DNA from: Candidatus Sigynarchaeum calidifontis
GTDB taxonomy: Archaea; Asgardarchaeota; Lokiarchaeia; Sigyniarchaeales; Sigyniarchaeaceae
Direction: 5' to 3'
Assembly: GCA_030587475.2 (NCBI GenBank)
Contig: JAUQYZ020000114.1
Location: 1-64,000, forward strand
DNA: 64,000 nucleotides
Part shown: positions 1 through 14,086 of the stretch, piece by piece
Numbering within the stretch: position 1 is the first letter of the stretch
Layout of the letters: every line of letters begins with the position of its first letter
Notes under the pieces: model-generated
Told to the model about the DNA's origin: nothing
The model's database searches: none
What the model saw: the letters and a program-made list of their open reading frames with translations, nothing else
Made by a program: the position numbers and the translations under genes

Positions 1-49
1 GGGTCGTAGTTTCATCAACAAATATTACTCCTAGTATATTAACAAGTAT

Positions 50-478
50 TTGGGTGTCCTTGAATATTTCGCGGATTTCAACAAGGAATTCGATCAGATC
101 ACCTCCGAGTTCTCAAACCTCTTAAAAATGAGCCAGAAGGACTTCGTTTCCGAATACTTCGTCAACGCCGCATCCAACGAGAACATTCGTGGCATGGTCA
201 TCTACGATCTGGTAAAGGACGAGTTCATCGCAAAAGATATCCCGAAGGACATCTCGTCGAAATCTTTTGAATCGTTCAGTGCGATGCTTTTTAGTTTCAT
301 CGAAAAGCTTGGAAAGGAGCTAAAAGCTGGGGAAATCAACGAGGCGTTGTTGCGAGCGGAGAATTATTGGATCGGGGCGTTTAAGAAGGGGAACTATGCC
401 GTCTTCATGCTCTTCTCGCGTGAATTCTTCGGGAAGATCCTCCCCGATTTTGTCACGAAGCCTCTGGAAAAGAAATAA
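50..478 (+). CDS. Roadblock/LC7- or longin-like small protein (Asgard type)
   Basis: 142 aa ORF (TTG start; alternative ATG at 128). Pattern IRGMVIYD...FSAMLFSFIEKLGKELKAGEINEALL...IGAF..G.YAVFMLF fits a roadblock/profilin-like alpha-beta fold. Confidence 0.55.
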   Translation: MGVLEYFADFNKEFDQITSEFSNLLKMSQKDFVSEYFVNAASNENIRGMVIYDLVKDEFIAKDIPKDISSKSFESFSAMLFSFIEKLGKELKAGEINEALLRAENYWIGAFKKGNYAVFMLFSREFFGKILPDFVTKPLEKK

Positions 479-619
479 TCCTCGAAGTAGGTACTTGCGG
501 GGATATGGGTTCACGGGGTGGCTGGGGGGCACCGGCGGAAGCTGGCATTCGCGGCAGCGACGGAAATCGGTAGTTATGGCGGCGATCGAGAGGCTCGCAA
601 GCCTTACATGGTTCTTGAA

Positions 620-1105
620 TCACTTGGAAAGCATTTCCTTGGCCCACGCCTTTGCTTTTTCTACTTGTTTCCCAGTATCTTGATGCACGGGTTCGATAAA
701 CGTTGCATCGCCGAGAATCTCGTTACCATCGAGCTGCTTGCGGAAATTTACCATCGCTTTCTTTGGATCACCTCCACATGACAAGAAAAGGGCCACCTTC
801 TTCCCCACGGGCTTGTGCAGCGTTAAAAATGTCCTGATAGCCGGGCAAAAATTCCACGCCCATACGGGGCCGCCGATGAAGAGGACCTCGTAATCCTTCG
901 GATCTTTGTCGAACGCCTTCAGCTCGGGCTTCTTCCGCATCAAGACATCCTTGCCGCCCCACAAGTACTTGGTCGATTTGCTCGGGTCGATGTCCTTGAT
1001 CGGCTCGAGACGCAATATATCAGCACCCGTGGCACCGGCGATCGCCTCCGCCACGAGCTTTGAGCTTCCTTCCAACGAATAGTAAACAACGAGTGTTTTT
1101 GGCAT
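620..1105 (-). CDS. Flavodoxin family protein
   Basis: KTLVVYYSLEGSSKLVAEAIA FMN-binding loop, GGPVWAW, and KKVALFLSCGG. Start taken at the ATG of MPKTL. Confidence 0.9.
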   Translation of the reverse strand: MPKTLVVYYSLEGSSKLVAEAIAGATGADILRLEPIKDIDPSKSTKYLWGGKDVLMRKKPELKAFDKDPKDYEVLFIGGPVWAWNFCPAIRTFLTLHKPVGKKVALFLSCGGDPKKAMVNFRKQLDGNEILGDATFIEPVHQDTGKQVEKAKAWAKEMLSK

Positions 1106-1329
1106 CTTTGCTAACACCGGATCAGTCGTTACTCTTACCAAGGCATCTCCCGTCCAATAGATATTTGTTTCCCCCTCGACAACACGACGTTTATTGCGAT
1201 ATCGATGGCCTTTATCGACTCGAGCCGCACCATATCCTCGCCTATAGCGCCGCCAATTTTACCATCCTCGTGATCTCCCTCTTTTAACCACCGATAGATA
1301 TTTGTCCCTCTCCTACCGAATAAGAGTCT

Positions 1330-2427
1330 GTGATGATGATGAGCCAGGAGTACAAGTCGAAACTACACGAGATGGTCATGAAGTTTCCCGGGACCACGGA
1401 TTTCTGGAACGACAGCTGCTCGATCAAGGAACTCAAGGAAGCAGTCGATCAAGGTGCCGTGGGTGCCACGTCGAATCCTGTCATCGTCGGTGAAGTCTTA
1501 AAAAAAGAAATGTCAGATTGGGTTGGCCGGATAGACCAGCTCATCAAGGAAAACCCGGAGGCATCGGAGATCGACATCACGTGGAAGGTCAACGAGGAGA
1601 TGGCTGTCAAGGCAGCGAAGCTGCTGGAGCCCGCGTTCGCGCAATACAAGGGAAAGAAAGGTCGCCTGTCGATCCAGACCAACCCCAAGAACTATCGCAA
1701 TCCCAAGGCGCTCGTCGAGCAGGCCGTGCACTTCAACACGCTCGCCCCGAACATGCAAGTCAAGATCCCCGTCACGAAGGCCGGGATCGCGGCTATCGAG
1801 GAGGCCACCTATCAAGGCGTGAGCATCAACGCCACGGTATGCTTCACCGTTCCCCAGGCGATCGCGGTTGCCGAAGCGGTGGAACGGGGTCTCAAGCGTC
1901 GCGAGGCAGAGAAGAAAAGCATCGCCGAGATGGCGCCGGTATGCACGATCATGGTCGGTCGCCTTGATGACTGGTTGAAGGTCGTCGCCAACAAGGAGAA
2001 CATCATCACGGATCCTGCTTACCTGGAATGGGCTGGAATTGCCGTGATGAAAAAAGCTTACAAGATCTACAAGGATCGCCGGTACCGGATTCGGCTCCTC
2101 GCGGCAGCACACCGGAACTACTTCCACTGGGCGGAGTTCATGGGCGGCGACATGGTCATCACGATCACGGCCCAGTGGCAGAAGCGATTCAATGCATCCG
2201 ATGTCGAGATCGCATCCCGCATCTACCACCCTGTCGACCAGCGCGCCATCGACGAGCTCTACAAGAAGTTCAAGGACTTCAAGCGCGCCTACGACGAGGA
2301 TGGCTTGAAGGTCGAGGAATTCGATTCGTTCGGGCCGACCGCGCGGACACTGCGGAGCTTCATCAAGGGTTACGAGGACTTGATGGGCATGATACGCGAC
2401 CGCATGATCCCCGACCCGGACAAGTGA
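1330..2427 (+). CDS. Transaldolase family protein (long type, non-canonical active-site residues)
   Basis: WNDS, GATSNP, VKIP (Schiff-base Lys), INAT and VGRLDD motifs. Confidence 0.88.
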   Translation: MMMMSQEYKSKLHEMVMKFPGTTDFWNDSCSIKELKEAVDQGAVGATSNPVIVGEVLKKEMSDWVGRIDQLIKENPEASEIDITWKVNEEMAVKAAKLLEPAFAQYKGKKGRLSIQTNPKNYRNPKALVEQAVHFNTLAPNMQVKIPVTKAGIAAIEEATYQGVSINATVCFTVPQAIAVAEAVERGLKRREAEKKSIAEMAPVCTIMVGRLDDWLKVVANKENIITDPAYLEWAGIAVMKKAYKIYKDRRYRIRLLAAAHRNYFHWAEFMGGDMVITITAQWQKRFNASDVEIASRIYHPVDQRAIDELYKKFKDFKRAYDEDGLKVEEFDSFGPTARTLRSFIKGYEDLMGMIRDRMIPDPDK

Positions 2428-2456
2428 TCCAAGGAGAAAAAATGAAATAGGAACGT

Positions 2457-3938
2457 TCAATCCCATTCTATTTTCGTGGACCCGTGGAACCGCTCGATGA
2501 TCACGTGGGCTTGCGTGAAAAACTCGACGGCCTCTCGACCTTGGGCTCGTAGCGTTCCGAAAAAAGAATCCTTTGCACCAGCAAAAGGGAACCACGCGAG
2601 CGGGGCAACGATGCCGATGTTGATGCCCACGTTCCCCGCCTGCACCTCGTGGCGGAAGTGCCTCGCGTTCTCGCCGCTCTCCGTGTAGATGGTCGTCGCG
2701 TTGCCGCGCGGGTCGGCGTTGAGCATGGCGATGGCCTCGTCGAGCGTGTCGACGCGGTGGAGGGAGGCGACGGGGCCAAATATCTCCTCTTGCATGAAGT
2801 AATTGCCGGGCTTCACGTTCTCGAAGATGCACGGGCCGAGGAAATATCCTTTTTCAAAGCCCGGTACCTTGATGCCGCGCCCGTCGAGGACCAGCGTGCC
2901 CCCGCCGTCGATCACCTTCTGGATCTGCTGGAGGAGCTTGTCGAGATTTTTTCTTGCCGAAACAGGTCCCATGAAAGAGCTCTTGTCCATGCCATATCCC
3001 ACCTTCAAGGACTTGGCAGCATCTATGAACTTTTTCTTGAACGTGTCATAGAACGCTGCATTGCCGACGATGACCACGTGCTTCCCTGCCAGGCAGCGCT
3101 GGCCCGAGTTGCCGTAGATCGAGTTCATCATGTTCGGCATGATCTTGTCGATGTTGGCCGTGTGGTCGACGACGAGGAAATTGTTCGCTCCGCCGTGGCA
3201 CTGGGCGCGTTTCCCGAGGCCCGTGGCCTTGGTATAGATGGCCTTGGCGACGGGCGTCGAGCCAACGCTCGAAACGCCTTTCACGTCCGGGTGCTCGATG
3301 AGCGCCGTGCCCACGTCGACCCCTCCATGGATTAAGTTGATGACTCCGGGGGGGAACCCGGCCTTGTCGATGCATGTCTCGAAGACGCGCTGCATGGGAA
3401 CGGGGGTTTGCTCGTTGGACTTGATGATGTAGGTGTTCCCCGCCGCGACGGCGAACGGCATGAACCAGAACGGGATCATGACCGGGAAGTTAAACGGCGG
3501 AATCATGACAAAAACGCCAAGCGGTTCCCGGGTCGTGTATTCGTCGATGCCGAGCGCGATGTCCTCCATGAACTCGCCCTTCTGCAGCTCGGGCACGGCG
3601 ATCGCCGCCTCGCACATCTGGTAAGCCCGAACGACCTCGCCCTCGGCAGCGTCCCACTCCTTGCCGTGGTTTTGCACCGTGATCTCCGTGAGCGCTTTGA
3701 TGTTTTCCTTGAGTAGCCCTTGCAGCTTCAAGATGGGCTGTATCCGCTGGATGCCCGGCGTGTTGCGCCACGCGGGAAAGGCAGCTTTCGCGGCCGAGAC
3801 GGCTGCTGCGACTTCCTCCTTCGTGGACATGGGCACCTTTGCGATGGGTTCGTCTTTCGCGGGGTTCATGGCATCGAGAAACGTCGTCGCCTTGGATTCC
3901 ACGAATTTCCCGCCGATGTAGTTTTTCAAGGTCTCCAT
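2457..3938 (-). CDS. mmsA: CoA-acylating methylmalonate/malonate-semialdehyde dehydrogenase (ALDH family)
   Basis: PFNFP, SVGSTPVA, GQRCLA (catalytic Cys), EEIFGPV and GINIGIVAPLAWFPFAG. The general-base Glu of hydrolytic ALDHs is absent, as in MmsA/IolA. Confidence 0.85.
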   Translation of the reverse strand: METLKNYIGGKFVESKATTFLDAMNPAKDEPIAKVPMSTKEEVAAAVSAAKAAFPAWRNTPGIQRIQPILKLQGLLKENIKALTEITVQNHGKEWDAAEGEVVRAYQMCEAAIAVPELQKGEFMEDIALGIDEYTTREPLGVFVMIPPFNFPVMIPFWFMPFAVAAGNTYIIKSNEQTPVPMQRVFETCIDKAGFPPGVINLIHGGVDVGTALIEHPDVKGVSSVGSTPVAKAIYTKATGLGKRAQCHGGANNFLVVDHTANIDKIMPNMMNSIYGNSGQRCLAGKHVVIVGNAAFYDTFKKKFIDAAKSLKVGYGMDKSSFMGPVSARKNLDKLLQQIQKVIDGGGTLVLDGRGIKVPGFEKGYFLGPCIFENVKPGNYFMQEEIFGPVASLHRVDTLDEAIAMLNADPRGNATTIYTESGENARHFRHEVQAGNVGINIGIVAPLAWFPFAGAKDSFFGTLRAQGREAVEFFTQAHVIIERFHGSTKIEWD

Positions 3939-4006
3939 TTCGTATCACGAAAAAAATGATCAGACAATCTAATACAGCCCATCGATCAATATCTATGTTG
4001 ATCGGG

Positions 4007-4504
4007 ATGAGACGACTCTATCTGGCAAATAGCCTCGGGTTTAGTTCGTTGACAAGCCCCGCAATCGCGGCGATCGCAGCGCGGCTGGAGCGCGAGGGCT
4101 TCGAGGTCTTCGAGCCGTTCACGGCGAACAAGGATCTCGGCGCGGAGATCGCCAGGTTGCAATCAACCGAGAAAGACTTCAACGTTCTGAAAAATAGACT
4201 CCGGGCAATCAGTGAAGAGATCGGGAGGCGAAATGCGGGCGCGATCGAGAGATCAACAGACGTGATCGCGATCCTGGATGGCGGACTTGACGTGGACTCT
4301 GGCGTCGCGGCGGAGATCGGCTACGCTGCAGGCAAGGGCAAGCGGGTCTTCGGGCTGCGGACCGACTTCCGAACCGGCGGGGACAACCCTGGCTCGACCA
4401 TCAACCTCCAGGTCGAGCATTTCATCGCCGCAACCGGCGGCTCGATCGCCCCGGACGTCGAAACGTTGATCGGATTGATGAGCAAGGCACGTGCCGCGAA
4501 ATGA
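4007..4504 (+). CDS. Nucleoside 2-deoxyribosyltransferase family protein
   Basis: LYLA..LGFS, FEVFEPF and DG..DVDSGVAAEIGYA..GK..FGLRTDFR signature. Start at the ATG of MRRLYLA. Confidence 0.85.
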   Translation: MRRLYLANSLGFSSLTSPAIAAIAARLEREGFEVFEPFTANKDLGAEIARLQSTEKDFNVLKNRLRAISEEIGRRNAGAIERSTDVIAILDGGLDVDSGVAAEIGYAAGKGKRVFGLRTDFRTGGDNPGSTINLQVEHFIAATGGSIAPDVETLIGLMSKARAAK

Positions 4505-4773
4505 AGTGCATGGTTATCTTTCTTGAGATCATAGCTCGAAATTTTTGCTCAAAAAGGGCGATTGCCCGAAATATTAACATCAGCGCGGCAAGAAGAGTAT
4601 ATGTTTAAAGCTTAAAAACAAGGGGTAGCACTATTCTTTCAACCAGAACCGGATCTTCGTATAACGTGATCCGGGTTCTTGTCAAGATTGATTTCGACAT
4701 GGATCAAGGAGCGGAGTAATATAATGCCCCGAATTTCATTGTCGATGATCCACATCAAGGAGAACGAATAGCA

Positions 4774-7443
4774 ATGCCAAGAGACGGAGAAGGGTTCATT
4801 CAAAAACTCACGGGGCACGGGACGCTGCAGCAGCGCATCATGAAAACGATCTTGATCTGCGTCTTGATCCCGATGGGTGTCCTTGCAGGGATAGCGATAA
4901 TTCAGATTTCTCCCCTCACCGCAAACATCGGCACGCAAGGTACCTCCTCCATCGAGGAAGAGGGCTTCAAGGCCTTGAAAATCAGCTCGATCGATGCGGG
5001 AAAATGGGTGAAGGCAGAAATCGACCAGGCGAGGAACGATCTCGTGCGCCTCGTGGAAAACGAGCTGTCCATCTTTAATGGCACATACGCCATCACGGAA
5101 ACGCGACCCTCCTACCACGCCAACGGGCCTTTGACAGCCCTTCCATCGGCGAGGTACGGCGGCAAGCTCGTGAATTTCGACTATTCCGATTGGGCAAATA
5201 CCACGACCGTGAGTCCTGCAATGCAAGACACGGTCAATAAATCTGCCTACCTGGATTATGCCATGAAAGGAATGTGCAATAACACGAGCTACATGACCAT
5301 CACGCAGGTCTTTCCGAACGGTATCTCGCGGGTCTACCCTTACATCAACAACAGCCGGTCTCTCGTCCAGGACCTCAGCGCGGAAAGCTGGTATCAGATC
5401 GCAGCCGGATTATCTTCGGGCTCGGTCTTTGTCGGCGCGAGCCACGTGAGGACGTTCGGAACCGTGACTTTTCCGGCCATATACATCGCCATGCCTATAC
5501 GTAGTGGCGTGAGCGCGGCAATCGGAGTCATCGCCATCGAGTACCGCTTGACGGCACTACGTAATTACTTGAACAGCATCGTCATCCAGGAAAGTGGCTT
5601 TGTTACACTGGTCGATTCCGCCAAGGATGTCTTGTCTTATCCAGGCATGGCTGAAAACGAGGCAAGAGACGAACTGGCTGACAAGTTTGGGGTCTCGTCT
5701 TCCGCTGCATGGACCGCGTTGACCACCATTGCAATATCCGGCTCGACCGGAACGGGGCTCTTCACGAATTCGAGCAAGCAATGGACGATGGGTTATGCAC
5801 CTGTCGGTGCCGGGCACATGTACGTGTTTTCCAACTTGTACATGCTGTCATTCGTGCCCTACTCTGAGATCATCACGCCGGGCTTGCAATTAAAAGCGAC
5901 CTTGTCAAACCTCAACATGATTGCCATTATAGTGTTCATCGGGATCGCGGCGGCGATCTTCGTTGTCATGTATCTTCTGGTGATTCGCGTTTCGAAGTCG
6001 ATCACTCGACCCATCGTCGCGCTGACGAGCGCTATCGAAAACATGACCAAGGGAGATCTCACGAACGAGATCCCGTTGGATGCAAAGTCCCGTGGCGACG
6101 AGCTCGGAACGCTAGCCATGTCATTCCAGAACTTGCTCACGACCATGCGCCTCGGCAACAAGAGCTATTACCGCGGCGACATGTCCCTCGCGTACACGAA
6201 TTACAAGGCCGCCCTGGAGCTCTTCGAGACCACGAACAACTTGCGCGGGCAAGCCATGTCCCACAACAACCTCGGCAACATCTACCGGCAATGGGGCGAT
6301 TACGACAAGGCCAAGGAGTCTTACGACAAGGCGATCCAGATAGGTGAATCGCAATCCGACCATGCGGGTCTCGCAGCGCGATACAACAACCGCGGCCTGC
6401 TTTTCCTCGCCGAGGAAAACTACGATGCCGCGAAAGCGGACTTCGACCGTGCCATGCAGATCGACAAGGAGCTCGGCGACGAGAAAGGCATCGCGACTCG
6501 CAACCGGAACCTCGGTATCTTGAACATACTACGGCAGCAGTGGAAGCTCGCCCAGAAATACCTGGAGGAAGCACTCAAGATCGATAGCGACCTCGGTAAC
6601 GAGGCCGGGATCGCAGATGACGAGTTCCAGTTGGGTCGCCTCGCTCATTCCACGAACGATCTAGAGGGCGCGGAGTCACATTACAAAAAAGCCCTCAAGT
6701 CCGCGCAAGGCCTACAAAATTACCCGCTCATGAAGAACGTGCTGGGGCAAATGGTCAAGCTATATGACTCGATGGATTCGACCACCGCCCTGCACAAGGC
6801 CGAAGCGGAGCTCGCCAAGGTCAACGCGATGCTCGTCAAGCCCAAGGAGGTCGTGTTCGTCATGGACCAGTCAGGCTCGATGCAAGCCGAGGGCAAGATG
6901 ACGGCATCGCGGAGCGGCGCCCTGGAGGTCTTCGAGGAGACGATCAACATCGGCGACGAGGTCGCAATCATCGGGTTCCATTCGATCATCAACCCGCTCC
7001 TCCCGCTCACGCGCAAGCAAGGCACGGACATCGCAAAGATCAAGGGAACGCTCCTCAACCTCGATAGCACGCCATACCAAACGGCTTTCTACGATGCGGT
7101 TGCCTACGCGATCGAGATGCTCAAGACGACGCCTCCCGAGAAGCAGCGCTGGATCGTGGCCTTGACCGACGGGCAAGACAACATGTCCAAGCAATACAAC
7201 CCGAACACCCTCGCCAAGCTCATCAAAGGCATCAGCCCGCCTCTTAACTTCGTGCTGATCGGGGTCGGCTCGGAACTGAAGATGGTGCACAACGAGATGA
7301 CGCAGATTTCAGAAGCAACTCCGCGTGGAAAATACATTAAAATCTATTCCGCGAAAAACGTGAAGAAAGCAATCGAGGATGCCTTCCAGAAAGTGAAAGA
7401 AATCATGGCTTCCTCGGAGATCGAGGGCTTCACGCCCGAGTGA
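4774..7443 (+). CDS. Membrane receptor: TM-dCache-TM-HAMP-TPR repeats-vWA
   Basis: Two TM helices flank an extracellular Cache-like region (SWY...IGVIAIEY...SGFVTLVD). HAMP: ITRPIVAL...GDL...DELGTLA.SF. About 5-6 TPRs (NNLGNIY, NNRG, NLG, QLG). vWA with intact MIDAS: DQSGS, QTAFYDA, LTDG. Confidence 0.85.
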   Translation: MPRDGEGFIQKLTGHGTLQQRIMKTILICVLIPMGVLAGIAIIQISPLTANIGTQGTSSIEEEGFKALKISSIDAGKWVKAEIDQARNDLVRLVENELSIFNGTYAITETRPSYHANGPLTALPSARYGGKLVNFDYSDWANTTTVSPAMQDTVNKSAYLDYAMKGMCNNTSYMTITQVFPNGISRVYPYINNSRSLVQDLSAESWYQIAAGLSSGSVFVGASHVRTFGTVTFPAIYIAMPIRSGVSAAIGVIAIEYRLTALRNYLNSIVIQESGFVTLVDSAKDVLSYPGMAENEARDELADKFGVSSSAAWTALTTIAISGSTGTGLFTNSSKQWTMGYAPVGAGHMYVFSNLYMLSFVPYSEIITPGLQLKATLSNLNMIAIIVFIGIAAAIFVVMYLLVIRVSKSITRPIVALTSAIENMTKGDLTNEIPLDAKSRGDELGTLAMSFQNLLTTMRLGNKSYYRGDMSLAYTNYKAALELFETTNNLRGQAMSHNNLGNIYRQWGDYDKAKESYDKAIQIGESQSDHAGLAARYNNRGLLFLAEENYDAAKADFDRAMQIDKELGDEKGIATRNRNLGILNILRQQWKLAQKYLEEALKIDSDLGNEAGIADDEFQLGRLAHSTNDLEGAESHYKKALKSAQGLQNYPLMKNVLGQMVKLYDSMDSTTALHKAEAELAKVNAMLVKPKEVVFVMDQSGSMQAEGKMTASRSGALEVFEETINIGDEVAIIGFHSIINPLLPLTRKQGTDIAKIKGTLLNLDSTPYQTAFYDAVAYAIEMLKTTPPEKQRWIVALTDGQDNMSKQYNPNTLAKLIKGISPPLNFVLIGVGSELKMVHNEMTQISEATPRGKYIKIYSAKNVKKAIEDAFQKVKEIMASSEIEGFTPE

Positions 7444-7453
7444 GAACGGAGGG

Positions 7454-9019
7454 ATGAGCATGAGCATACCCCAGAAACAGAAACAAAAAAAGAGCCTGCG
7501 AGCGCAGATCCTCACGACCTACGCGCTGTTCAGCATCATCGCCCTCGGCAGTATCGCGGCAGTAGCGGGCAGTTTCATCGGAGTGGTAGGTACGACCGCA
7601 TCGAGCCAGACGAGCGCGACGCTCACGCAGCAAGTACAAGGTAGCATGAGGGATCAAGCACGTGCAACGGCCCAAATCATCGAGAACCAGCTACAAGATG
7701 CTGTCTACGACCTAGAATCGCTCGCCGTGTACGTTGAGCGGCTTTGGGCAGTGCCGCGTGCCGAGCTCGGCACTCGCCCGTCCTATTATCACATGGCGCA
7801 TGTAGACACGACCATGGAAGCAGAGAACGGGACCATCATTCCCGTGATCGTGAACGGCTCCGCGCTCGGGGCCCCCTTGAATTTCCCTGCGAACCGCCCT
7901 CCGGATGCAGCCTATTCCAGCCGGTATGACATGAACGTGTCGTTCACCTACTCCCACTACCTCGTCTTCCCCGCGGCATTGGCGGCAATGGGTAACAGCC
8001 CCAGCGGGATGAGCCCGACGTTCAAGGACGCGGTGGAGCGATCGGCATTTCTCGACATCCCGATGAGTTCTCTCATGAAAACCAAGCCACAATACACGTG
8101 GATCTACATGGAATTCGCGATCGGGCTCGACCGCTGCATGCCATGGCACGACACGGAATATTTTATCTTCCCGTGGTACATCGAGAACTCGCCAGTTGGC
8201 CTGGATCTCCGCGAAGAGGCTTACTACACGGATGCAGTGGCAGCCAATGGTGCCGTGCAATGGACACCCCCTTACAACGATCCAAGCGGTCAAGGCTTCA
8301 TGATCACGATCTCCCGCGCCGTGTATAACGGCAGCAATCTCATCGGCGTGCTGTGCATGGACCTCACGATCAACACGGTCACCCAGCTGGTGAGCGCCTT
8401 CAAGCCCACGACCAACGGCTACGCGTTCTTGATCGACGAATTTGGTTTCGTCGTTTCCCACCCGGCTTACACGGCGAGCCCCACGGACGAATCTGGCCCG
8501 GCGATCGAGACGCTCGAGCCCGCGATACCCGCGGCCTCGGTCGTGGCCATGCGCAATGGACAGAACGGTTTTATCGAGATCACGAAAGGCGGCAAGGAAT
8601 GGTACCTCGCGTATAACCCTGTTCCCATATCCAGTTATTCCGTTGGCGTGCTCGTCCCTAAAGAGGATATCCTCGCGCCGGTGCGAGCACTGGAGCAGCA
8701 AGTAGCTATCAATCTCGGGATACAGCTCTTCGTGATGCTAGGCATCGTCGCGGTCATCTTGATCTTCTCGCTCTGGATCGGTATCAGCATTGCAAATTCC
8801 GTAGTGAAACCCATCCAAAAGCTCACGGACATGGCACTAAAGTTATCTACAGAGGACATCAAGCAGACGGCAGTGTCGCGCGACATCGGTACGACCTTGG
8901 ATCGCGAGCTGGAGGAAAAAGACGACGAGATTGGTAGCCTTACCAAGGCATTCAAGGGGTTGGTCAAGGCTGTCCAGGAGGAAGGCAAGAAAGAGGCCAA
9001 GGAAGGCAAGGGGGCATGA
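7454..9019 (+). CDS. Membrane dCache-HAMP receptor with no cytoplasmic output domain
   Basis: TM, dCache motifs (WTPPYND, ITISRAVY, IGVLCMDL, GYAFLID..G.VVSHP), TM, HAMP (VVKPIQKL...DEIGSLTKAF), then a short charged tail. SD-like GGAGG in the 10-nt gap upstream. Confidence 0.85.
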   Translation: MSMSIPQKQKQKKSLRAQILTTYALFSIIALGSIAAVAGSFIGVVGTTASSQTSATLTQQVQGSMRDQARATAQIIENQLQDAVYDLESLAVYVERLWAVPRAELGTRPSYYHMAHVDTTMEAENGTIIPVIVNGSALGAPLNFPANRPPDAAYSSRYDMNVSFTYSHYLVFPAALAAMGNSPSGMSPTFKDAVERSAFLDIPMSSLMKTKPQYTWIYMEFAIGLDRCMPWHDTEYFIFPWYIENSPVGLDLREEAYYTDAVAANGAVQWTPPYNDPSGQGFMITISRAVYNGSNLIGVLCMDLTINTVTQLVSAFKPTTNGYAFLIDEFGFVVSHPAYTASPTDESGPAIETLEPAIPAASVVAMRNGQNGFIEITKGGKEWYLAYNPVPISSYSVGVLVPKEDILAPVRALEQQVAINLGIQLFVMLGIVAVILIFSLWIGISIANSVVKPIQKLTDMALKLSTEDIKQTAVSRDIGTTLDRELEEKDDEIGSLTKAFKGLVKAVQEEGKKEAKEGKGA

Positions 9020-9020
9020 G

Positions 9021-9046
9021 CTTTTTATCCCCTTTTTTTCTTTTAT
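9021..9046 (+). terminator. Oligo-T tract, probable archaeal intrinsic terminator of the receptor pair
   Basis: CTTTTTATCCCCTTTTTTTCTTTTAT immediately after the stop at 9019. Confidence 0.45.
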
Positions 9047-9099
9047 GCTCACGAGTATAATGACATGTTTCGATGAATCGACGACCAAGAAGAGCGGCA

Positions 9100-10257
9100 A
9101 TGTCGGCAAAAACAATCCTCAAGTTCCAGCAAGCGTGGAGTCGTTCCTTCAAGAAGGCGATCTATAGCTGCGCCATCGCGAACCTCGTCGGCGACCAGAA
9201 ACCAGAGATCGTCGGTTGCTCGTTCTCGGCCGAGATGCGGGTGTTCGACTTGAAGGGGAACGAGCTCTTCGCCACGGAGTTCTCGCCCAGCATCACGACA
9301 TTCAAGCCTGCCTCGGTGACCAAGAAAGGTGCCGTCGAGCTCGTCTCCGGCGACATGGACGGTTTCGTGCGGGTGATGGACATGAACGGCAATCCCGTGT
9401 GGACGACCAACGTGAAGTCGCCCGTGATCTGCATGGAGCTGGGGGACTTGCACGGCGACGCTCGCAAGGAGATCGTGGTCGGACTCGAAAACAAGAAGAT
9501 CGTCGTCATTGACAATAGCGGCGCCATCGAGCTCGAGTTCGCGATGGAAGAGGCGATCGTGGATATCGCCATCGCTTGGCTGAAGAACGTGCCAGACGCG
9601 CGGATCGCCGTCTTGCTTCGGTCCGGGTCCGTGGTTATGCTCGACCTGGCCGGCCGGCTGGTTCCCGCCTTCAAGATCGAGGAACGGGGCACAAGCATCG
9701 CGTTCGTCCAGTACCGATCGCACTCGTTCATTGCCATCGGTGACAAGGCCGGTGCCTTGCGGATCTACACGCCAGAAGGCGAGATCGTTGGAAAAATCGA
9801 GCTCGGGGCGAAAGTCGGCTGCATCGATGGTTTTACTGGATTCGGCGCGGAAGGTGGCGACGTGCTCTTGGCAGCATCGGCCGGCAGCGAGCTGTACTTG
9901 TTCCGGATCGAGGCCGAGCGACTTGCGCCGGAACCGGTCGAAAACAGCGCTGCCTACGTTCGCCGCATGACCATCAAGGACAGCCAGGCCATCATCGAGA
10001 AGGAGGCCGTGAGCAAGATCAAGAAGATGATGCAAGTCTCCAAGCGGCTCCGGGTGGACATGATGCGCGATGCCCTGGGCATCGACACGAAAACATTCTC
10101 GAGCAAGATGATAGACTGGGCTGCACAGTTCGGTTTCCAGATCGATGGGGATTACGTGGATTTCAGTACCGGCGATACGAACGGCTTCATCAACGAGCTG
10201 GATTCTTATTTCACGGACTGGGCACAAAAAACAAAAACCAAGCAAGGAAAGATATGA
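9100..10257 (+). CDS. FG-GAP-like beta-propeller protein with C-terminal PCI-like winged-helix domain
   Basis: Repeated blades IANLVGDQKPEIV, ELVSGDMDG.VRV and LGDLHGDARKEIVVG. C-terminus KKMMQVSKRLRVDMMRDALG...DWAAQFGFQIDGDYV. Start taken at the ATG of MSAKT. Confidence 0.65.
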   Translation: MSAKTILKFQQAWSRSFKKAIYSCAIANLVGDQKPEIVGCSFSAEMRVFDLKGNELFATEFSPSITTFKPASVTKKGAVELVSGDMDGFVRVMDMNGNPVWTTNVKSPVICMELGDLHGDARKEIVVGLENKKIVVIDNSGAIELEFAMEEAIVDIAIAWLKNVPDARIAVLLRSGSVVMLDLAGRLVPAFKIEERGTSIAFVQYRSHSFIAIGDKAGALRIYTPEGEIVGKIELGAKVGCIDGFTGFGAEGGDVLLAASAGSELYLFRIEAERLAPEPVENSAAYVRRMTIKDSQAIIEKEAVSKIKKMMQVSKRLRVDMMRDALGIDTKTFSSKMIDWAAQFGFQIDGDYVDFSTGDTNGFINELDSYFTDWAQKTKTKQGKI

Positions 10258-10289
10258 AGAGTTAGAAAAAAATCGAGAATTGTTCGTTT

Positions 10290-11066
10290 TCACACGTCCT
10301 GTACCATGATCCTTTCCTTTTTTCGCAGTACGCCCCTCACGACCGCGATGCCAGCCATCGCTCCCAAGAGTACCAGCACGCTCGTGAAACCTTCCACGAC
10401 CGGCGGTTCATCGCCTCCCCCCGGCGTGTACGTGTATGTCCAGATGATGACCGGGCGCCATTCCAGGTGTTCGACTTGTTCCTTTGTCGGTAGCGTAACT
10501 TGAAAAAGCGGGGATGTGCTCGTTGCATTCAGGCGGATAGAGATTTCATCCCGTCCCGTTATGTAATCCGTGATGTTGATGTAGAAGTACGTTGGGTTTC
10601 CCACCACGGCCAGGTCGGTGATATGCGTCGTGCCAGGGGGCCTATTGGTCCAGTTAAGCGTGGATTCCTCCCAGGGCGCGTCGACGATGGTGATCCGGAG
10701 GGTGCCGTATTGGTAGGTCATAGCATATAACCGGATCACGGCGCTGGTGAGATTTGCTGGTTTTCCCGTGTAATTGAAATGGAAGAACGCCTCCATGAAG
10801 ATCAGCGGCGGATCCATATCGGCAATACCTGCATAGACCTGCGACACGGAGCCCATATTAGCCGCTGGTAAATCGCTTCTACACCCTGTATCCTTGTCTG
10901 CGAGGGTGGTCTTGGTTCCGGTTGCTACTGCTTGAATCGCTCTTGTTGTGATGGCACAACTCGCCCCGACGATCAAGAAGAAGGAAAGCCAGAAAAGAAT
11001 GTACTTAGTGCTCGCGTGTATGATCTCAGCCTCTAAATAACTCTTTGTCGTGAGATGCTTGATCAC
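10290..11066 (-). CDS. Secreted DNRLRE/CBM96-like surface protein with C-terminal sorting signal
   Basis: N-terminal hydrophobic segment; ADKDT, EAFFHF, SAVIRLY, WEESTLNWTNRP and TKE...RP motifs; C-terminal VEGF + TM + RKK. Start uncertain. Confidence 0.65.
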   Translation of the reverse strand: MIKHLTTKSYLEAEIIHASTKYILFWLSFFLIVGASCAITTRAIQAVATGTKTTLADKDTGCRSDLPAANMGSVSQVYAGIADMDPPLIFMEAFFHFNYTGKPANLTSAVIRLYAMTYQYGTLRITIVDAPWEESTLNWTNRPPGTTHITDLAVVGNPTYFYINITDYITGRDEISIRLNATSTSPLFQVTLPTKEQVEHLEWRPVIIWTYTYTPGGGDEPPVVEGFTSVLVLLGAMAGIAVVRGVLRKKERIMVQDV

Positions 11067-11168
11067 AATCCGAGAGGATAATTAAACTTGCAAACGTCTC
11101 GCCTCCTTCAAAACATCTCATCTACCATCTGAACTTTTTTAAATGCCGGAAAGGCGCTAGAAGTGTCC

Positions 11169-12998
11169 ATGAGACACGAAATTTACCTCGATGGGATCTG
11201 GGCATATCTCGCCGACACGAGAAACGAGTTCAAGGACGTTGACGGCAAGGCATTCGAGTCGCGGTTGGGCGATCTCGTAGCGGCGAGGCCTTGGAAAAAA
11301 TGTTTCGTGCCGTCAGTGACGAACTTGCACGACAAGGCGCTGTTCCGGTTCTTTGGCAAGGTGTTTTACAAGGTATCCTTCAAGACACCCGCGGGGGCGC
11401 GGGATCATCTCGTCAGCCTCAAGTTCGGCGGGGTCAACTACAAGGCGATCGCGTGGCTAAATGGCAGGTATCTCGGCCAGCACGAGAACGGGTACACCGA
11501 ATTCTCGTTTGATATCGGCGGTTTCTTGAACCACGATCCTTCCGGTGCGGAAGATAACCAGCTGGTCGTGCTCGTCGATAACTCGTGGGGACACAAGGAC
11601 TGGCTACCCTGGACGCACAAGGTCGACTGGTTCAACTACAACGGCATCCACCGGAGCGTGCGGCTCGTCGTGAAGCCGCTCGTGCGCGTCTCGGATTACG
11701 AGATCCGTGGTCCCATGGAATTCCCGCCCGGCGATTCGGTCAGGCCCGTGAAGATCTCGCTGCTCGCCCGCGTCGTGATGGAGAACCGGTCGACCTCGAA
11801 CTTCCCCGGCGCGGTGCAAATCGAGCTCGCGGATGGATCCACGGGTAAAAAACTCGTTTCGGCGATCGAGATGGTCACGATCATCGCGGGGGGCAAAACA
11901 GAACAGGATTTCGAGTTAGCGCTTGACCCCTCCACCATCACGCTTTGGTCCCCCGATTCCCCCGTGTTGTACCGCGTGACGTTCCGCATCCTCGATGCCA
12001 AGAACCTGAAGGTCGACGAGCGCTCGTGGAAGTGGGGGTTCAAGAAGTTCGAGACGCGCGGGGAGAAATTCTATTTGAACAACAAGCGGTTCGTCATGCT
12101 CGGCACCAACCGGCACGAGGATCACCCTGATTTTGGCCTTGCATTGCCGGATTCCTTGCGATACCAGGATCTCGTGAAGATGAAGGGCGCCGGCATCAAC
12201 TGTTTCCGCGGCTCGCATTACCCGGTCGGCAAGGCCTTGCTCGATTTTTGCGACGAGCTCGGGATACTCTTCGTCGAGGAGATCCCGGCCTATTCACTCG
12301 ATGCGACGACGATGGCCGACCCAAGCGTCCTCGAGACTGCCAAGCGCTGCTTCGACGAGATGCACGACCGGGACAAGAACCACGTGTGCCTCGTCGCATG
12401 GTCGGTGAGCAATGAATGCCACACGGAAACAAGCGAAGGTTTTATCTTCCACGAGGCGCTATATAAACACGTCCGGGCAGTCGACAAGGGCGAGCGCATG
12501 GTCATCCACGTGTCGAACAAGGGGGCCATGGATCGTTGCCACGTGCTGTCCGATTTCGTCACGATGAACATCTACAAGGGTTGGTACAGCGGTGAAATGT
12601 CGGATTTCATGCAAGAGGCGAACCTGGTTCACGAGATCTTGCTTGACGAGGATCACGAGCTCGGGCCGCCCCGGCCGATCGTGCTAACCGAGTTCGGTGC
12701 CGAGGGCCTGCGCGGGTACCGCAGCTGGCAAGCGTCCAAGTGGTCGGAGGACTACCAGGCAGAATTCTTGAAATATTACATCTCCGAGTGCATGAAGCAC
12801 GACGATTTCATCGGCGGCACGTGGACGTGGATGTACTCGGACACGCGGGTTGACCTGCCCGATCGACCAGACGGGCGCCCGCGTAGCTACAACAACAAGG
12901 GCATGGTCGACGAGTTCCGCAGCCCGAAGCTCGCGTATGGCGTCATCCGGGATTTGTACGCGAGATGGAAAGAAAAGGTAGGGAATTCACGAGGTTGA
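11169..12998 (+). CDS. GH2 glycoside hydrolase, probable beta-glucuronidase
   Basis: H.NGYTEF, DWFNYNGIHR, NRHED, RGSHYP, WSVSNE (acid/base), TEFGAE (nucleophile) and the NxKG glucuronidase motif (YNNKG). Confidence 0.85.
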   Translation: MRHEIYLDGIWAYLADTRNEFKDVDGKAFESRLGDLVAARPWKKCFVPSVTNLHDKALFRFFGKVFYKVSFKTPAGARDHLVSLKFGGVNYKAIAWLNGRYLGQHENGYTEFSFDIGGFLNHDPSGAEDNQLVVLVDNSWGHKDWLPWTHKVDWFNYNGIHRSVRLVVKPLVRVSDYEIRGPMEFPPGDSVRPVKISLLARVVMENRSTSNFPGAVQIELADGSTGKKLVSAIEMVTIIAGGKTEQDFELALDPSTITLWSPDSPVLYRVTFRILDAKNLKVDERSWKWGFKKFETRGEKFYLNNKRFVMLGTNRHEDHPDFGLALPDSLRYQDLVKMKGAGINCFRGSHYPVGKALLDFCDELGILFVEEIPAYSLDATTMADPSVLETAKRCFDEMHDRDKNHVCLVAWSVSNECHTETSEGFIFHEALYKHVRAVDKGERMVIHVSNKGAMDRCHVLSDFVTMNIYKGWYSGEMSDFMQEANLVHEILLDEDHELGPPRPIVLTEFGAEGLRGYRSWQASKWSEDYQAEFLKYYISECMKHDDFIGGTWTWMYSDTRVDLPDRPDGRPRSYNNKGMVDEFRSPKLAYGVIRDLYARWKEKVGNSRG

Positions 12999-13015
12999 TC
13001 TTTTTTTCTATACCG

Positions 13016-13918
13016 CTACCCTCGGGATTTCGCTGCAGCAACCACTTCCGCGATGCGTTGCTTCGCGCTGGCGCGTTCCTCCGCCTCGATGCGTTCGATG
13101 GCAGCGCGAAGGCCATGTTTCTTGACGAAAGGAATGCCATCGTAACTCATCCAGAGCAAGACGAGCGGTACGAAGAAAAACAAGCCGATGAAAACATCGA
13201 CGCCAAGATCTGCCTCCCCGCCAGTCAAGTGATATGCCATTGGTTCGGATCCAGACAAGAGCGGTCCCACGAAGGCAATGAGAAGCGGCGCGATACCTGC
13301 AAGGATGACGATGACCGACGCGATCTGGAAGTGCTTGCTGCTTCGCTGCATGACGAACATCATGAGCAAGAGCGTGATGGCAAGGACGGAAACCAGATAC
13401 GGGAGGTACTCGGGGTAACCGTAATAATTGCCGCACGGGAACCTGCCCGTTGCCAGTATCGAGTCCATGGAAAACCACCAGTCATTGCCGAACCAGATTG
13501 CACCCCACGGGATATCGTATGGGCCGCCTGGATAGCTGGCCGTGGGCGGATGGCCGATGATGTCGATAAACAGGTGCAAGAGACCGCCAGCCGCTACGAG
13601 ACAAAAGACTTCCGGGATCGTGATGATTGCTTCCTTGGCTGGATCTCGCTTCGTGACCTTGAATGGTACCCACTGGAGCGAGAACTTGGTGAAAATTGAC
13701 CACGCGAACGCGAGGGGAATGGCAGCAACGATCCATCCATACCCGTGAAAAAACCAATACGCTTGATTACCCCAATCGAGGAACCCGAACATGTCCGGGC
13801 CGACGAGCGAGTTGACGGTGAAGATGATGGCGTGTTTTATGGAAAATTTGCCACGGGTTGCCTTGTACAAGAACAAGGACAAGCCTAAATTAAAAACGAT
13901 GTGTGCTGTGCCAGGCAT
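13016..13918 (-). CDS. Polytopic membrane protein, probable membrane-bound metal-dependent hydrolase (YdjM-like)
   Basis: N-terminal H, GPD, HG and HLFID pattern with 6-7 TM segments. Confidence 0.5.
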   Translation of the reverse strand: MPGTAHIVFNLGLSLFLYKATRGKFSIKHAIIFTVNSLVGPDMFGFLDWGNQAYWFFHGYGWIVAAIPLAFAWSIFTKFSLQWVPFKVTKRDPAKEAIITIPEVFCLVAAGGLLHLFIDIIGHPPTASYPGGPYDIPWGAIWFGNDWWFSMDSILATGRFPCGNYYGYPEYLPYLVSVLAITLLLMMFVMQRSSKHFQIASVIVILAGIAPLLIAFVGPLLSGSEPMAYHLTGGEADLGVDVFIGLFFFVPLVLLWMSYDGIPFVKKHGLRAAIERIEAEERASAKQRIAEVVAAAKSRG

Positions 13919-14086
13919 AGTCGTCCATCAGCTCGGGAGGTAATAAGATTGCCCTCGCACGAGATATTAATGCTTCTGAGGGAAACCAACGAGTCTCGCA
14001 CTCGGATCCGGCCTCCTTGGAAGGACTCGGATGGCATGAAGCGTGAAAAATGGGGCGGTCCCGTTTACCACGAATGGCCAGCTACC

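What the first reader, a model, noticed from the sequence alone, without database searches (positions are those of the whole stretch)
4774..7443. Transmembrane receptor with a TPR-vWA output instead of a kinase, MCP or cyclase
Seen: TM-dCache-TM-HAMP runs directly into TPRs and a vWA domain with an intact MIDAS. Established: prokaryotic Cache-HAMP receptors normally signal through histidine kinase, MCP, cyclase or phosphatase domains; Cache plus vWA is known from eukaryotic alpha2delta/CACHD1, but there the vWA is extracellular. From unverified memory, Cache-TM-TPR-vWA proteins with a similar ALxLF...NNxGN junction occur in ciliates and other protists. Inference: a non-enzymatic, protein-interaction signalling receptor that may be shared between Asgard archaea and eukaryotes.
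Basis: partly seen in the sequence, partly recalled or inferred. Interest (0 to 1): 0.85.

Follow-up and report, generated by a model that had tools for sequence, protein, structure and literature searches.

The report
Kinase-free Asgard Cache-HAMP-TPR-vWA receptor module
This Asgard archaeon gene encodes a membrane sensor with only protein-docking domains inside the cell; it always sits beside an output-less twin sensor and usually a propeller protein, and relatives occur in some protists and a giant-virus genome, so it looks like an undescribed way of signalling across a membrane.

Summary
ORF 4774-7443 (+) encodes an 889-aa protein: TM, double-Cache ectodomain, TM, HAMP, about 5.5 TPRs, then a vWA domain with an invariant MIDAS.

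It is one part of a conserved module. An output-less paralog, gene B (7454-9019), follows gene A directly in 63 of 63 Asgard loci. A cytoplasmic beta-propeller, gene C (9073-10257), is adjacent in 50 of 64 loci.

The HAMP-TPR-vWA output is joined to different sensors: dCache, or a 7TM protein that is separate or fused.

Structure prediction with controls supports docking of C onto the TPR/vWA junction (score 0.77, best control 0.00).

Among about 185,000 prokaryote species, full-length copies were found only in Asgard archaea (112 of 400 genomes sampled). Bacteria matched the vWA domain only.

Eukaryotic homologs exist. In chrysophytes (Spumella) they are single B-A fusion proteins. One further unidentified eukaryote and a giant-virus MAG also carry the pair. 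No ciliate was found.

This window's clade has lost the amino-acid-binding Cache motif, so the ligand is unknown.

I found no description in the searchable literature. This scan has met the same system before on other Asgard DNA.

Best reading: a heteromeric, kinase-free receptor whose output is regulated protein docking.

The parts
4774..7443 (+). Gene A: TM-dCache-TM-HAMP-TPR-vWA receptor subunit (889 aa, P0001)
   Evidence: ORF and translation; Pfam; AF2 model with pLDDT 84.9; single copy in the own genome
4846..4902 (+). TM1 (residues 25-43)
   Evidence: Kyte-Doolittle window score 2.72
4903..5925 (+). Extracellular double-Cache sensor (residues 44-384). The amino-acid motif is degenerate: QDLSAESWY in place of YxxxxRxWY.
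   Evidence: Pfam dCache_1 44.8 bits; Foldseek matches to dCache ligand-binding domains; motif alignment
5926..5982 (+). TM2 (residues 385-403)
   Evidence: Hydropathy score 3.06
5989..6144 (+). HAMP domain (residues 406-457)
   Evidence: Pfam HAMP 37.6 bits against a cut-off of 25. This is the least confident part of the model, pLDDT 53-65.
6151..6834 (+). TPR solenoid: 11 helices after the HAMP AS2/junction helix (residues 460-687). The last helices (661-684) form part of the predicted docking site for protein C.
   Evidence: TPR_12 108 bits; helices in the model; LGN/KLC-type TPR matches; interface residues
6841..7383 (+). Cytoplasmic vWA domain (residues 690-870)
   Evidence: VWA_2 and VWA hits; Rossmann-like beta/alpha pattern in the model; residues 726-727 and 748-757 lie in the predicted interface with C
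6865..6879 (+). MIDAS DxSxS motif (D698-Q-S-G-S702), completed by T770 and D799
   Evidence: Motif found; all five ligands invariant in 51 sequences
7396..7440 (+). Conserved acidic C-terminal tail (consensus ..IMASSEIEGFxPE); role unknown
   Evidence: E884 and F886 nearly invariant; disordered in the model, pLDDT below 50 for residues 884-889
7454..9019 (+). Gene B: output-less paralog, TM-dCache-TM-HAMP (521 aa, P0002). It starts 10 nt after the stop of A.
   Evidence: Pfam dCache_1 87 bits and HAMP 22.7 bits; colinear with A residues 1-470 at 22% identity, E 1e-17; immediately downstream of A in 63 of 63 loci
9073..10257 (+). Gene C: cytoplasmic beta-propeller (residues 15-283) plus a winged-helix-like C-terminal domain (301-389); 394 aa, P0119; no signal peptide
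   Evidence: AF2 pLDDT 85.1; propeller matches; adjacent to A/B in 50 of 64 loci; predicted to bind A residues 455-889

Best explanation
Genes A, B and C encode a kinase-free transmembrane signalling module. A (sensor-HAMP-TPR-vWA) and its output-less paralog B (sensor-HAMP) most likely form a heterodimeric receptor through their Cache/TM/HAMP parts, giving one TPR-vWA arm per receptor. Ligand binding to the Cache ectodomains would pass through TM2 and the HAMP bundle into the TPR solenoid, which is joined to HAMP helix AS2 without a linker. That would change how the TPR/vWA arm holds partner proteins. The soluble propeller C docks on the last TPR helices and the adjacent side of the vWA domain. 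The MIDAS face stays free for a second, metal-dependent client carrying an acidic residue. The output is therefore regulated recruitment or release of proteins, not catalysis. Shown here: the domain anatomy, the topology, MIDAS conservation, gene linkage, swapping of sensor modules, the eukaryotic B-A fusion, and the phyletic distribution. Inferred: A-B heterodimerisation. Supported only by a model: A-C binding. Unknown: the ligand, the MIDAS client, and the cellular response.
For: (1) Anatomy and topology. (2) MIDAS ligands invariant across 51 sequences down to 23% identity. (3) B directly follows A in 63 of 63 Asgard loci, with gaps mostly of 2-14 nt. C is adjacent in 50 of 64 loci, in two gene orders (A-B-C in 19, C-A-B in 30) and once on the opposite strand. 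Linkage has therefore survived rearrangement. (4) The HAMP-TPR-vWA output (55-60% identical) is combined with different inputs: dCache, a minimal 2TM loop with a separate upstream 7TM gene, or that 7TM fused on. B changes in step in the first two classes, carrying dCache with dCache and a mini-loop with a mini-loop. This is how signalling output modules behave. (5) Fusion evidence: eukaryotic homologs are single chains TM-Cache-TM-HAMP-linker-TM-Cache-TM-HAMP-TPR-vWA. Their first unit groups with Asgard B sensors (15 rows, SH-aLRT 99) and their second unit with A sensors (22 rows, SH-aLRT 99). (6) Complex prediction of A 455-889 with C: scores 0.77, 0.77 and 0.80; best of 3 controls 0.00. The mark was reached by 58 of 80 solved complexes and by 2 of 110 mismatched pairs; these counts hold only roughly because my own alignments were used. 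The runs agree in at least 93% of contacts and the partner's pLDDT is at least 79. (7) A cytoplasmic archaeal vWA protein acting as a non-enzymatic signalling hub has a precedent in ArnB/ArnA (PMC12852372).
Against: A-B heterodimerisation was not modelled, so homodimers of A and of B remain possible. The predicted A-C interface is no better conserved than the rest of the proteins: mean top-residue frequency 0.41 against 0.55 in A, and 0.50 against 0.46 in C. About five loci with at least 4 kb on both sides lack C. No C-like gene lies next to the eukaryotic, giant-virus or L102 copies, so C may be dispensable or Asgard-specific. The HAMP region is the least confident part of the model (pLDDT 53-65). 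No downstream effector is identified.
Confidence: 0.55

Rival explanations
1. A is a self-sufficient homodimeric receptor. B is a separate modulator: a decoy or dominant-negative subunit that titrates ligand or caps A, not an obligate partner.
For: B has a complete sensor and HAMP of its own. HAMP receptors are normally homodimers (established knowledge). In two lineages (L041, L047) the A and B sensors are each other's closest relatives, as expected for recent duplicates.
Against: There is strict 63 of 63 adjacency with translational-coupling distances. The sensor type co-varies between A and B. The two are covalently fused as B-A in eukaryotes. All three fit an obligate pair better.
Confidence: 0.15
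2. The module controls transcription by sequestration. C is a propeller-tethered winged-helix (or, in other lineages, zinc-ribbon) factor held at the membrane by the TPR/vWA arm and released on signal. This is a specific version of the output step.
For: The C-terminal domain of C has a helix-strand-helix-helix-strand-strand order typical of winged-helix domains. Other lineages carry zinc ribbons and one or two further winged-helix-like domains. C is predicted to bind A.
Against: No Pfam DNA-binding family matches the C-terminal domain. The C-terminal parts of C vary widely between lineages. Winged-helix domains also serve protein-protein contacts, as in PCI and ESCRT-II proteins (established knowledge).
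Confidence: 0.15
3. It is not a signal transducer. It is a membrane anchor or assembly platform that ties surface contacts to an internal scaffold such as the cytoskeleton or a coat, like an integrin turned inside out.
For: A vWA domain beside an FG-GAP/BBS/ITFG2-like propeller recalls the integrin head and coat or BBSome scaffolds. The propeller's best Foldseek matches include ITFG2, BBS1 and BBSome subunits. Orthologs of C just pass the Pfam cut-offs for BBS7 (30.9 bits against 27) and PHTB1_N (29.2 against 28.6).
Against: A HAMP domain and swappable sensor modules (dCache or 7TM) are hallmarks of signal input. The propeller matches are generic: NHL and WD40 propellers score equally at Z about 25.
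Confidence: 0.12
4. It is a variant of known prokaryotic vWA systems: the BatA/BatB-MoxR aerotolerance operon, or a vWA-based conflict or defence system.
For: TPR and vWA proteins co-occur in Bat operons. There is a weak NCBIfam hit to BatC-type TPR (22 bits against a cut-off of 175).
Against: No MoxR AAA+, DUF58 or other Bat gene lies within about 5 kb. The neighbours are a transaldolase, an aldehyde dehydrogenase, a deoxyribosyltransferase, CBM96 and GH2. PADLOC gives only a generic TPR hit. The gene is single-copy, with stable gene order across Asgard phyla, unlike defence islands.
Confidence: 0.03

Closest known systems
Bacterial and archaeal dCache_1-HAMP transmembrane receptors (chemoreceptors such as PctA/B/C, CtaA and Mlp37; Cache sensor kinases)
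   Same: Same input half: TM, double Cache, TM, HAMP. The ectodomain fold matches solved ligand-binding domains. Distant Asgard relatives and the eukaryotic copies keep the YxxxxRxWY amino-acid motif.
   Different: The output is TPR plus vWA, not an MCP signalling domain, kinase, cyclase or phosphatase. The module has an obligate-looking output-less paralog and a propeller partner. This window's clade has lost the amino-acid motif.
Sensory rhodopsin II / HtrII and other sensor-plus-HAMP-transducer pairs
   Same: In the short class of the family, a separate 7TM protein sits upstream of 2TM-HAMP proteins that have almost no outer loop. This is the layout of a sensor with its transducer.
   Different: The transducer ends in TPR-vWA, not an MCP domain, and comes as an A/B pair. 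In this window the sensor is a built-in dCache.
Eukaryotic alpha2delta / CACHD1 (Cache plus vWA)
   Same: It combines dCache_1 and a MIDAS vWA in one membrane protein. Foldseek finds alpha2delta (8x90_B) among the matches.
   Different: In alpha2delta the vWA is inserted into the Cache domain and is extracellular. PMC8915833 states this for all the eukaryotic dCache_1 proteins those authors found. Here the vWA is cytoplasmic, separated from the Cache by TM-HAMP-TPR. The chrysophyte homologs found here are thus a second, undescribed eukaryotic Cache/vWA architecture.
ArnB/ArnA of Sulfolobus (cytoplasmic vWA signalling hub)
   Same: A cytoplasmic archaeal vWA domain with a MIDAS works as a non-enzymatic docking hub in a regulatory pathway. 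Its partner binds through a zinc ribbon (PMC12852372). Zinc ribbons end many C proteins and some B proteins of this family.
   Different: ArnB is soluble, has a beta-sandwich and a C-terminal helical bundle, and is controlled by phosphorylation and an FHA partner. None of these features is present here.
Integrin head / BBSome and KICSTOR propellers
   Same: A vWA domain is predicted to pack against a propeller of the FG-GAP/BBS/ITFG2 type.
   Different: The likeness is at fold level only. The predicted contact uses the TPR/vWA junction, not the MIDAS, and lies in the cytoplasm. Membership of those families is not established.

Membership tests
dCache_1 (PF02743) extracellular sensor | Sequence match above the Pfam gathering score | tested here: inconclusive
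   44.8 bits against a cut-off of 45 for P0001. Relatives of the same family score 53-82 bits.
dCache_1 (PF02743) extracellular sensor | Double PAS-like fold on a long N-terminal helix, placed between two TM helices | tested here: met
   AF2 ectodomain pLDDT is mostly above 90. Foldseek matches CtaA 6py3 (TM 0.79 on the target), PscC 6mni, Mlp37 5ave and MkcA 9heh. TM helices at 25-43 and 385-403.
dCache_1AA amino-acid sensors (Gumerov et al. 2022) | N-terminal half of the AA motif, Y-x4-R-x-W-Y | tested here: not met
   P0001 reads Q-DLSA-E-S-W-Y: the Tyr and the carboxylate-binding Arg are replaced. The whole close clade is variable at these positions, while distant Asgard and eukaryotic relatives keep YDPRxRxWY.
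HAMP (PF00672) | Sequence match and position directly after the second TM helix | tested here: met
   37.6 bits against a cut-off of 25, residues 406-457, three residues after TM2.
vWA domain with functional MIDAS | DxSxS, plus Thr and Asp ligands, on a Rossmann-like fold | tested here: met
   VWA_2 47.8 bits and VWA 36.2 bits. D698, S700, S702, T770 and D799 are invariant in 51 sequences. Metal binding itself was not tested.
Classical HAMP outputs (histidine kinase, MCP signalling domain, GGDEF/EAL, PP2C) | One of these domains lies C-terminal to the HAMP | tested here: not met
   Pfam and NCBIfam matches to kinases and MCPs cover only the TM2-HAMP stretch, residues 373-459.
alpha2delta / CACHD1 | vWA inserted within the dCache domain, both extracellular | tested here: not met
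   The domain order is Cache-TM-HAMP-TPR-vWA with the vWA in the cytoplasm. The family definition is from PMC8915833.
BatA/BatB-MoxR operon | Neighbouring MoxR AAA+ ATPase and DUF58 genes | tested here: not met
   No such genes lie within window positions 1-14000 or in the homologous loci.
ArnB-type vWA | Beta-sandwich split by the vWA domain, plus a C-terminal regulatory helical bundle | tested here: not met
   In the model the protein ends about 20 residues after the last vWA helix and has no beta-sandwich.
BBSome / ITFG2-type propeller (for gene C) | Pfam match above the gathering score | tested here: inconclusive
   P0119: BBS2_Mid 25.7 bits against 27. Orthologs: BBS7 propeller 30.9 against 27, PHTB1_N 29.2 against 28.6, Itfg2 27.0 against 27. 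Fold matches to ITFG2 and BBS1 are no better than those to WD40 and NHL propellers.

The most novel reading that the evidence does not exclude
The A/B receptor pair is an Asgard invention that the eukaryotic lineage inherited at or near its origin and that most eukaryotes later lost; it is not a late transfer. That would make it a new eukaryotic signature system: a kinase-free surface receptor wired to a TPR-vWA arm and, in Asgard, to a BBSome/ITFG2-like propeller. It would be a prokaryotic forerunner of receptor-adaptor signalling. The single well-supported split between all Asgard copies and all eukaryote or giant-virus copies (SH-aLRT 98), and the 25% identity between the two eukaryotic lineages, do not exclude this.
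Probability: 0.2. Interest if true: 0.9.

Novelty: new variant of a known kind. Interest (0 to 1): 0.78.

Why it matters
Prokaryotic transmembrane signalling is thought to end almost always in an enzyme or in the MCP-CheA array. Here a HAMP domain drives only docking domains. The module is kept in about a third of sampled Asgard genera, including cultured Lokiarchaeum ossiferum, so it can be studied experimentally. It would add a protein-recruitment type of receptor to the closest archaeal relatives of eukaryotes. It also reveals a second Cache/vWA receptor architecture in eukaryotes (chrysophytes) and in giant viruses, which published surveys of eukaryotic Cache proteins did not list. Finally, it gives a concrete case for asking whether receptor-adaptor signalling predates eukaryotes.

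Tried and rejected
Ciliates: two database searches seeded with the eukaryotic proteins returned only EukProt (Spumella vulgaris and unnamed entries), MMETSP and metagenome sequences. No ciliate and no named NCBI or UniRef eukaryote appeared.

Arginine decarboxylase link, a lead from earlier scan notes: a PvlArgDC gene follows C only in L012 and L013 among my 66 loci, and not in this window, where CBM96 and GH2 genes follow. I therefore do not use it for this clade.

Amino-acid sensing: rejected for this protein because the motif is degenerate.

C-terminal acidic tail plugging the MIDAS: the tail is disordered in the model (pLDDT below 50), so this is neither supported nor excluded.

Interface conservation: not above background.

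Defence system: PADLOC gives only a generic TPR hit.

vWA subtype: sequence search of solved structures gave only weak hits, ITIH4 at E 0.016 and CLCA1 at E 0.047.

C-terminal domain of C: no Pfam family matches.

Literature: five full-text searches found no description of the architecture or the operon.

Placement of eukaryotes inside a particular Asgard clade: the sensor-unit tree puts unit 1 with a Heimdall B (support 82) and unit 2 with Loki-type A (support 87), on long branches. I treat this as unresolved.
Full report
**What is there**

The ORF at 4774-7443 (+) is intact and encodes 889 residues.
- Pfam finds dCache_1 (146-352; 44.8 bits, just under the cut-off of 45), HAMP (406-457), four TPR_12 stretches and a vWA domain (693-857). 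Neither Pfam nor NCBIfam finds a kinase, MCP, cyclase or phosphatase domain.
- Two hydrophobic helices (25-43 and 385-403) put the Cache region outside the cell and HAMP-TPR-vWA inside.
- An AlphaFold2 model built on 51 relatives has mean pLDDT 84.9.
- Its ectodomain matches solved double-Cache ligand-binding domains: CtaA 6py3, PscC 6mni and Mlp37 5ave. Its TPR part matches LGN and kinesin-light-chain TPRs.
- The five MIDAS ligands (D698, S700, S702, T770, D799) are invariant in all 51 aligned sequences, down to 23% identity. An acidic C-terminal tail is also conserved.

**The gene is part of a module**

Ten bases after its stop begins a 521-aa paralog, gene B (7454-9019). It has the same TM-dCache-TM-HAMP layout but no output domain. 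It is colinear with A residues 1-470 at 22% identity.

Fifty-three bases further on lies gene C (9073-10257). It encodes a cytoplasmic beta-propeller with a winged-helix-like C-terminal domain.

In 64 Asgard loci fetched through protein look-ups and a scan of species-representative genomes:
- B follows A directly in 63 of the 63 loci that have downstream sequence, mostly with gaps of 2-14 nt.
- C is adjacent in 50 of 64 loci: as A-B-C (19), C-A-B (30) or on the opposite strand (1). Most of the exceptions are cut contigs.

Linkage that survives a change of gene order is strong evidence that the three proteins work together.

**The cytoplasmic part behaves as an output module**

The HAMP-TPR-vWA part stays 55-60% identical across relatives, while the sensor in front of it changes:
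- a dCache domain, as here;
- a minimal two-helix hairpin, preceded by a separate 7TM gene;
- that same 7TM protein fused on.

B keeps pace in the first two classes: dCache with dCache, and a 150-aa TM-loop-TM-HAMP protein with the hairpin form. Known HAMP outputs recombine with sensors in the same way.

**Do A and C bind?**

A controlled complex prediction of A 455-889 with C, each given with its own alignment, scored 0.77, 0.77 and 0.80. The best of three controls scored 0.00.
- In the tool's calibration, the mark was reached by 58 of 80 solved complexes and by 2 of 110 mismatched pairs. These counts hold only roughly here, because my own alignments were used.
- The runs agree in at least 93% of contacts, and the partner's pLDDT is at least 79.
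- The contact uses the last TPR helices (661-684) and the neighbouring side of the vWA domain (726-727, 748-757), against one face of the propeller.
- The MIDAS is not part of it, so a second, metal-dependent client remains possible.
- The interface is no more conserved than the rest of the proteins.

This supports binding; it does not show it.

**Do A and B pair?**

I could not model this pair. The evidence is indirect: invariable adjacency, matching sensor types, and a gene fusion (described below).

**Distribution**

The pattern-based scan of 185,579 prokaryote species genomes gave full-length matches only in Asgard archaea. They were Promethearchaeota (including cultured Lokiarchaeum ossiferum and Promethearchaeum), Thor-, Heimdall- and Hermodarchaeota, plus one bin labelled Methanobacteriota. 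Bacteria matched the vWA domain only.

In the phylum, 112 of 400 genomes carry it: 33 of 85 genera, and 22 of 90 high-quality genomes. There is usually one copy, as in this genome.

**Eukaryotes and giant viruses**

A 1619-aa EukProt protein aligns with A from the Cache domain to the C-terminus (26% identity, E 3e-49).

Its family of 1400-1750-aa proteins includes:
- Spumella vulgaris, a chrysophyte;
- MMETSP transcripts;
- an assembly contig whose neighbours are anoctamin and protein-kinase genes, so it is eukaryotic DNA.

These proteins have four TM helices and two Cache-HAMP units. In a tree of sensor units, the first unit groups with Asgard B sensors and the second with A sensors, each with SH-aLRT 99. 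They are therefore B-A fusions, which supports physical pairing of A and B.

A more distant relative (25% identity to the chrysophyte protein) lies on a metagenome contig beside fragments of the ciliary gene ARMC9, with a B-like ORF upstream.

A giant-virus MAG contig carries separate B-like and A-like genes in the same B-A order.

In the tree of the output module, all eukaryotic and virus-type sequences lie on one side of a branch with SH-aLRT 98, and all named Asgard sequences on the other. One transfer or one line of descent fits this. The direction and date are open. No ciliate was found.

Gumerov et al. 2022 state that every eukaryotic dCache_1 protein they found has the vWA inserted in the Cache domain (PMC8915833). 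This family is a different architecture.

**Ligand**

Distant Asgard relatives and the eukaryotic proteins keep YxxxxRxWY, the N-terminal half of the amino-acid-binding motif. This window's clade does not: P0001 reads QDLSAESWY, and the positions vary among its close relatives. The ligand of this protein is unknown. Amino-acid sensing should not be assumed here.

**Mechanism proposed**

A and B form a heteromeric receptor. The signal passes through HAMP into the directly attached TPR solenoid and changes the docking properties of the TPR/vWA arm. That arm holds the propeller protein C and, through the MIDAS, another client.

Rival readings, scored in the Rival explanations section:
- A acts as a homodimer and B is a modulator.
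- The output is sequestration and release of C as a winged-helix transcription factor.
- The module is a structural membrane-to-scaffold anchor, not a transducer.
- It is a Bat/MoxR-like or defence system. The neighbourhood and PADLOC speak against this.

**Novelty**

Five full-text searches found no description. The nearest documented analogue of a cytoplasmic archaeal vWA signalling hub is ArnB/ArnA (PMC12852372).

This scan has already met the same system on other Asgard DNA, with similar conclusions. From those notes I took the giant-virus lead and the arginine-decarboxylase lead, and tested both. The first held. The second does not apply to this clade. I did not test their mention of chytrid fungi.

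What this window adds is a Sigynarchaeum-like member (92% identical to a protein named from Candidatus Sigynarchaeum springense) with a degenerate ligand motif and a short propeller-plus-winged-helix form of C.

Noticed in passing
window 3839-4504 (+): A nucleoside 2-deoxyribosyltransferase gene lies directly upstream of gene A. The same neighbour is present in the 60%-identical locus L013 but not in more distant loci.
   Followed up: partly
L103:5904-10268 (IMG/VR GVMAG-M-3300023179-27_000001): A giant-virus MAG contig carries a B-like dCache gene followed by an A-like dCache-TPR-vWA gene (24% identity to P0001), next to a DNA photolyase gene. Metagenome proteins P0181 and P0225 group with it.
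   Followed up: partly
L101:129-5783: A divergent 1394-aa homolog (P0290) sits on a metagenome contig beside split ARMC9 (ciliary protein) ORFs, so it probably comes from a flagellated eukaryote of unknown identity. A weak B-like ORF lies upstream.
   Followed up: partly
L015:2277-3020, L016:6212-6967, L025-L028; fused in L018:7001-9421: In the short (about 575 aa) class of the family, a 247-aa multi-pass membrane protein with no Pfam family always precedes gene A. In the 806-808-aa class it is fused to A's N-terminus, so it is probably the sensor there.
   Followed up: partly
L012:14154-14798 and L013:8742-9371: A pyruvoyl-dependent arginine decarboxylase gene follows the propeller gene in two close relatives. 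In this window that position is taken by a CBM96 gene (10290-11066, minus strand) and a GH2 glycosidase gene (11163-12998).
   Followed up: partly
L041 and L047: In these two loci the A and B sensor domains are each other's closest relatives, which suggests gene conversion or a recent re-duplication. L047 is labelled Methanobacteriota, which may be a binning or labelling error, or a transfer.
   Followed up: no
L018:9435-10010 (P0118) and the C-termini of C proteins in L012, L015, L016, L033: The same type of zinc ribbon (CPxC ... YCExCG) ends many propeller proteins and, in the 7TM-fused class, the B protein instead. It is absent from this window's B and C.
   Followed up: no
window 9073-10257, residues 301-389 of P0119: The C-terminal domain of the propeller protein has a winged-helix-like order of secondary structure and no Pfam match. 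Whether it binds DNA or protein is open.
   Followed up: partly
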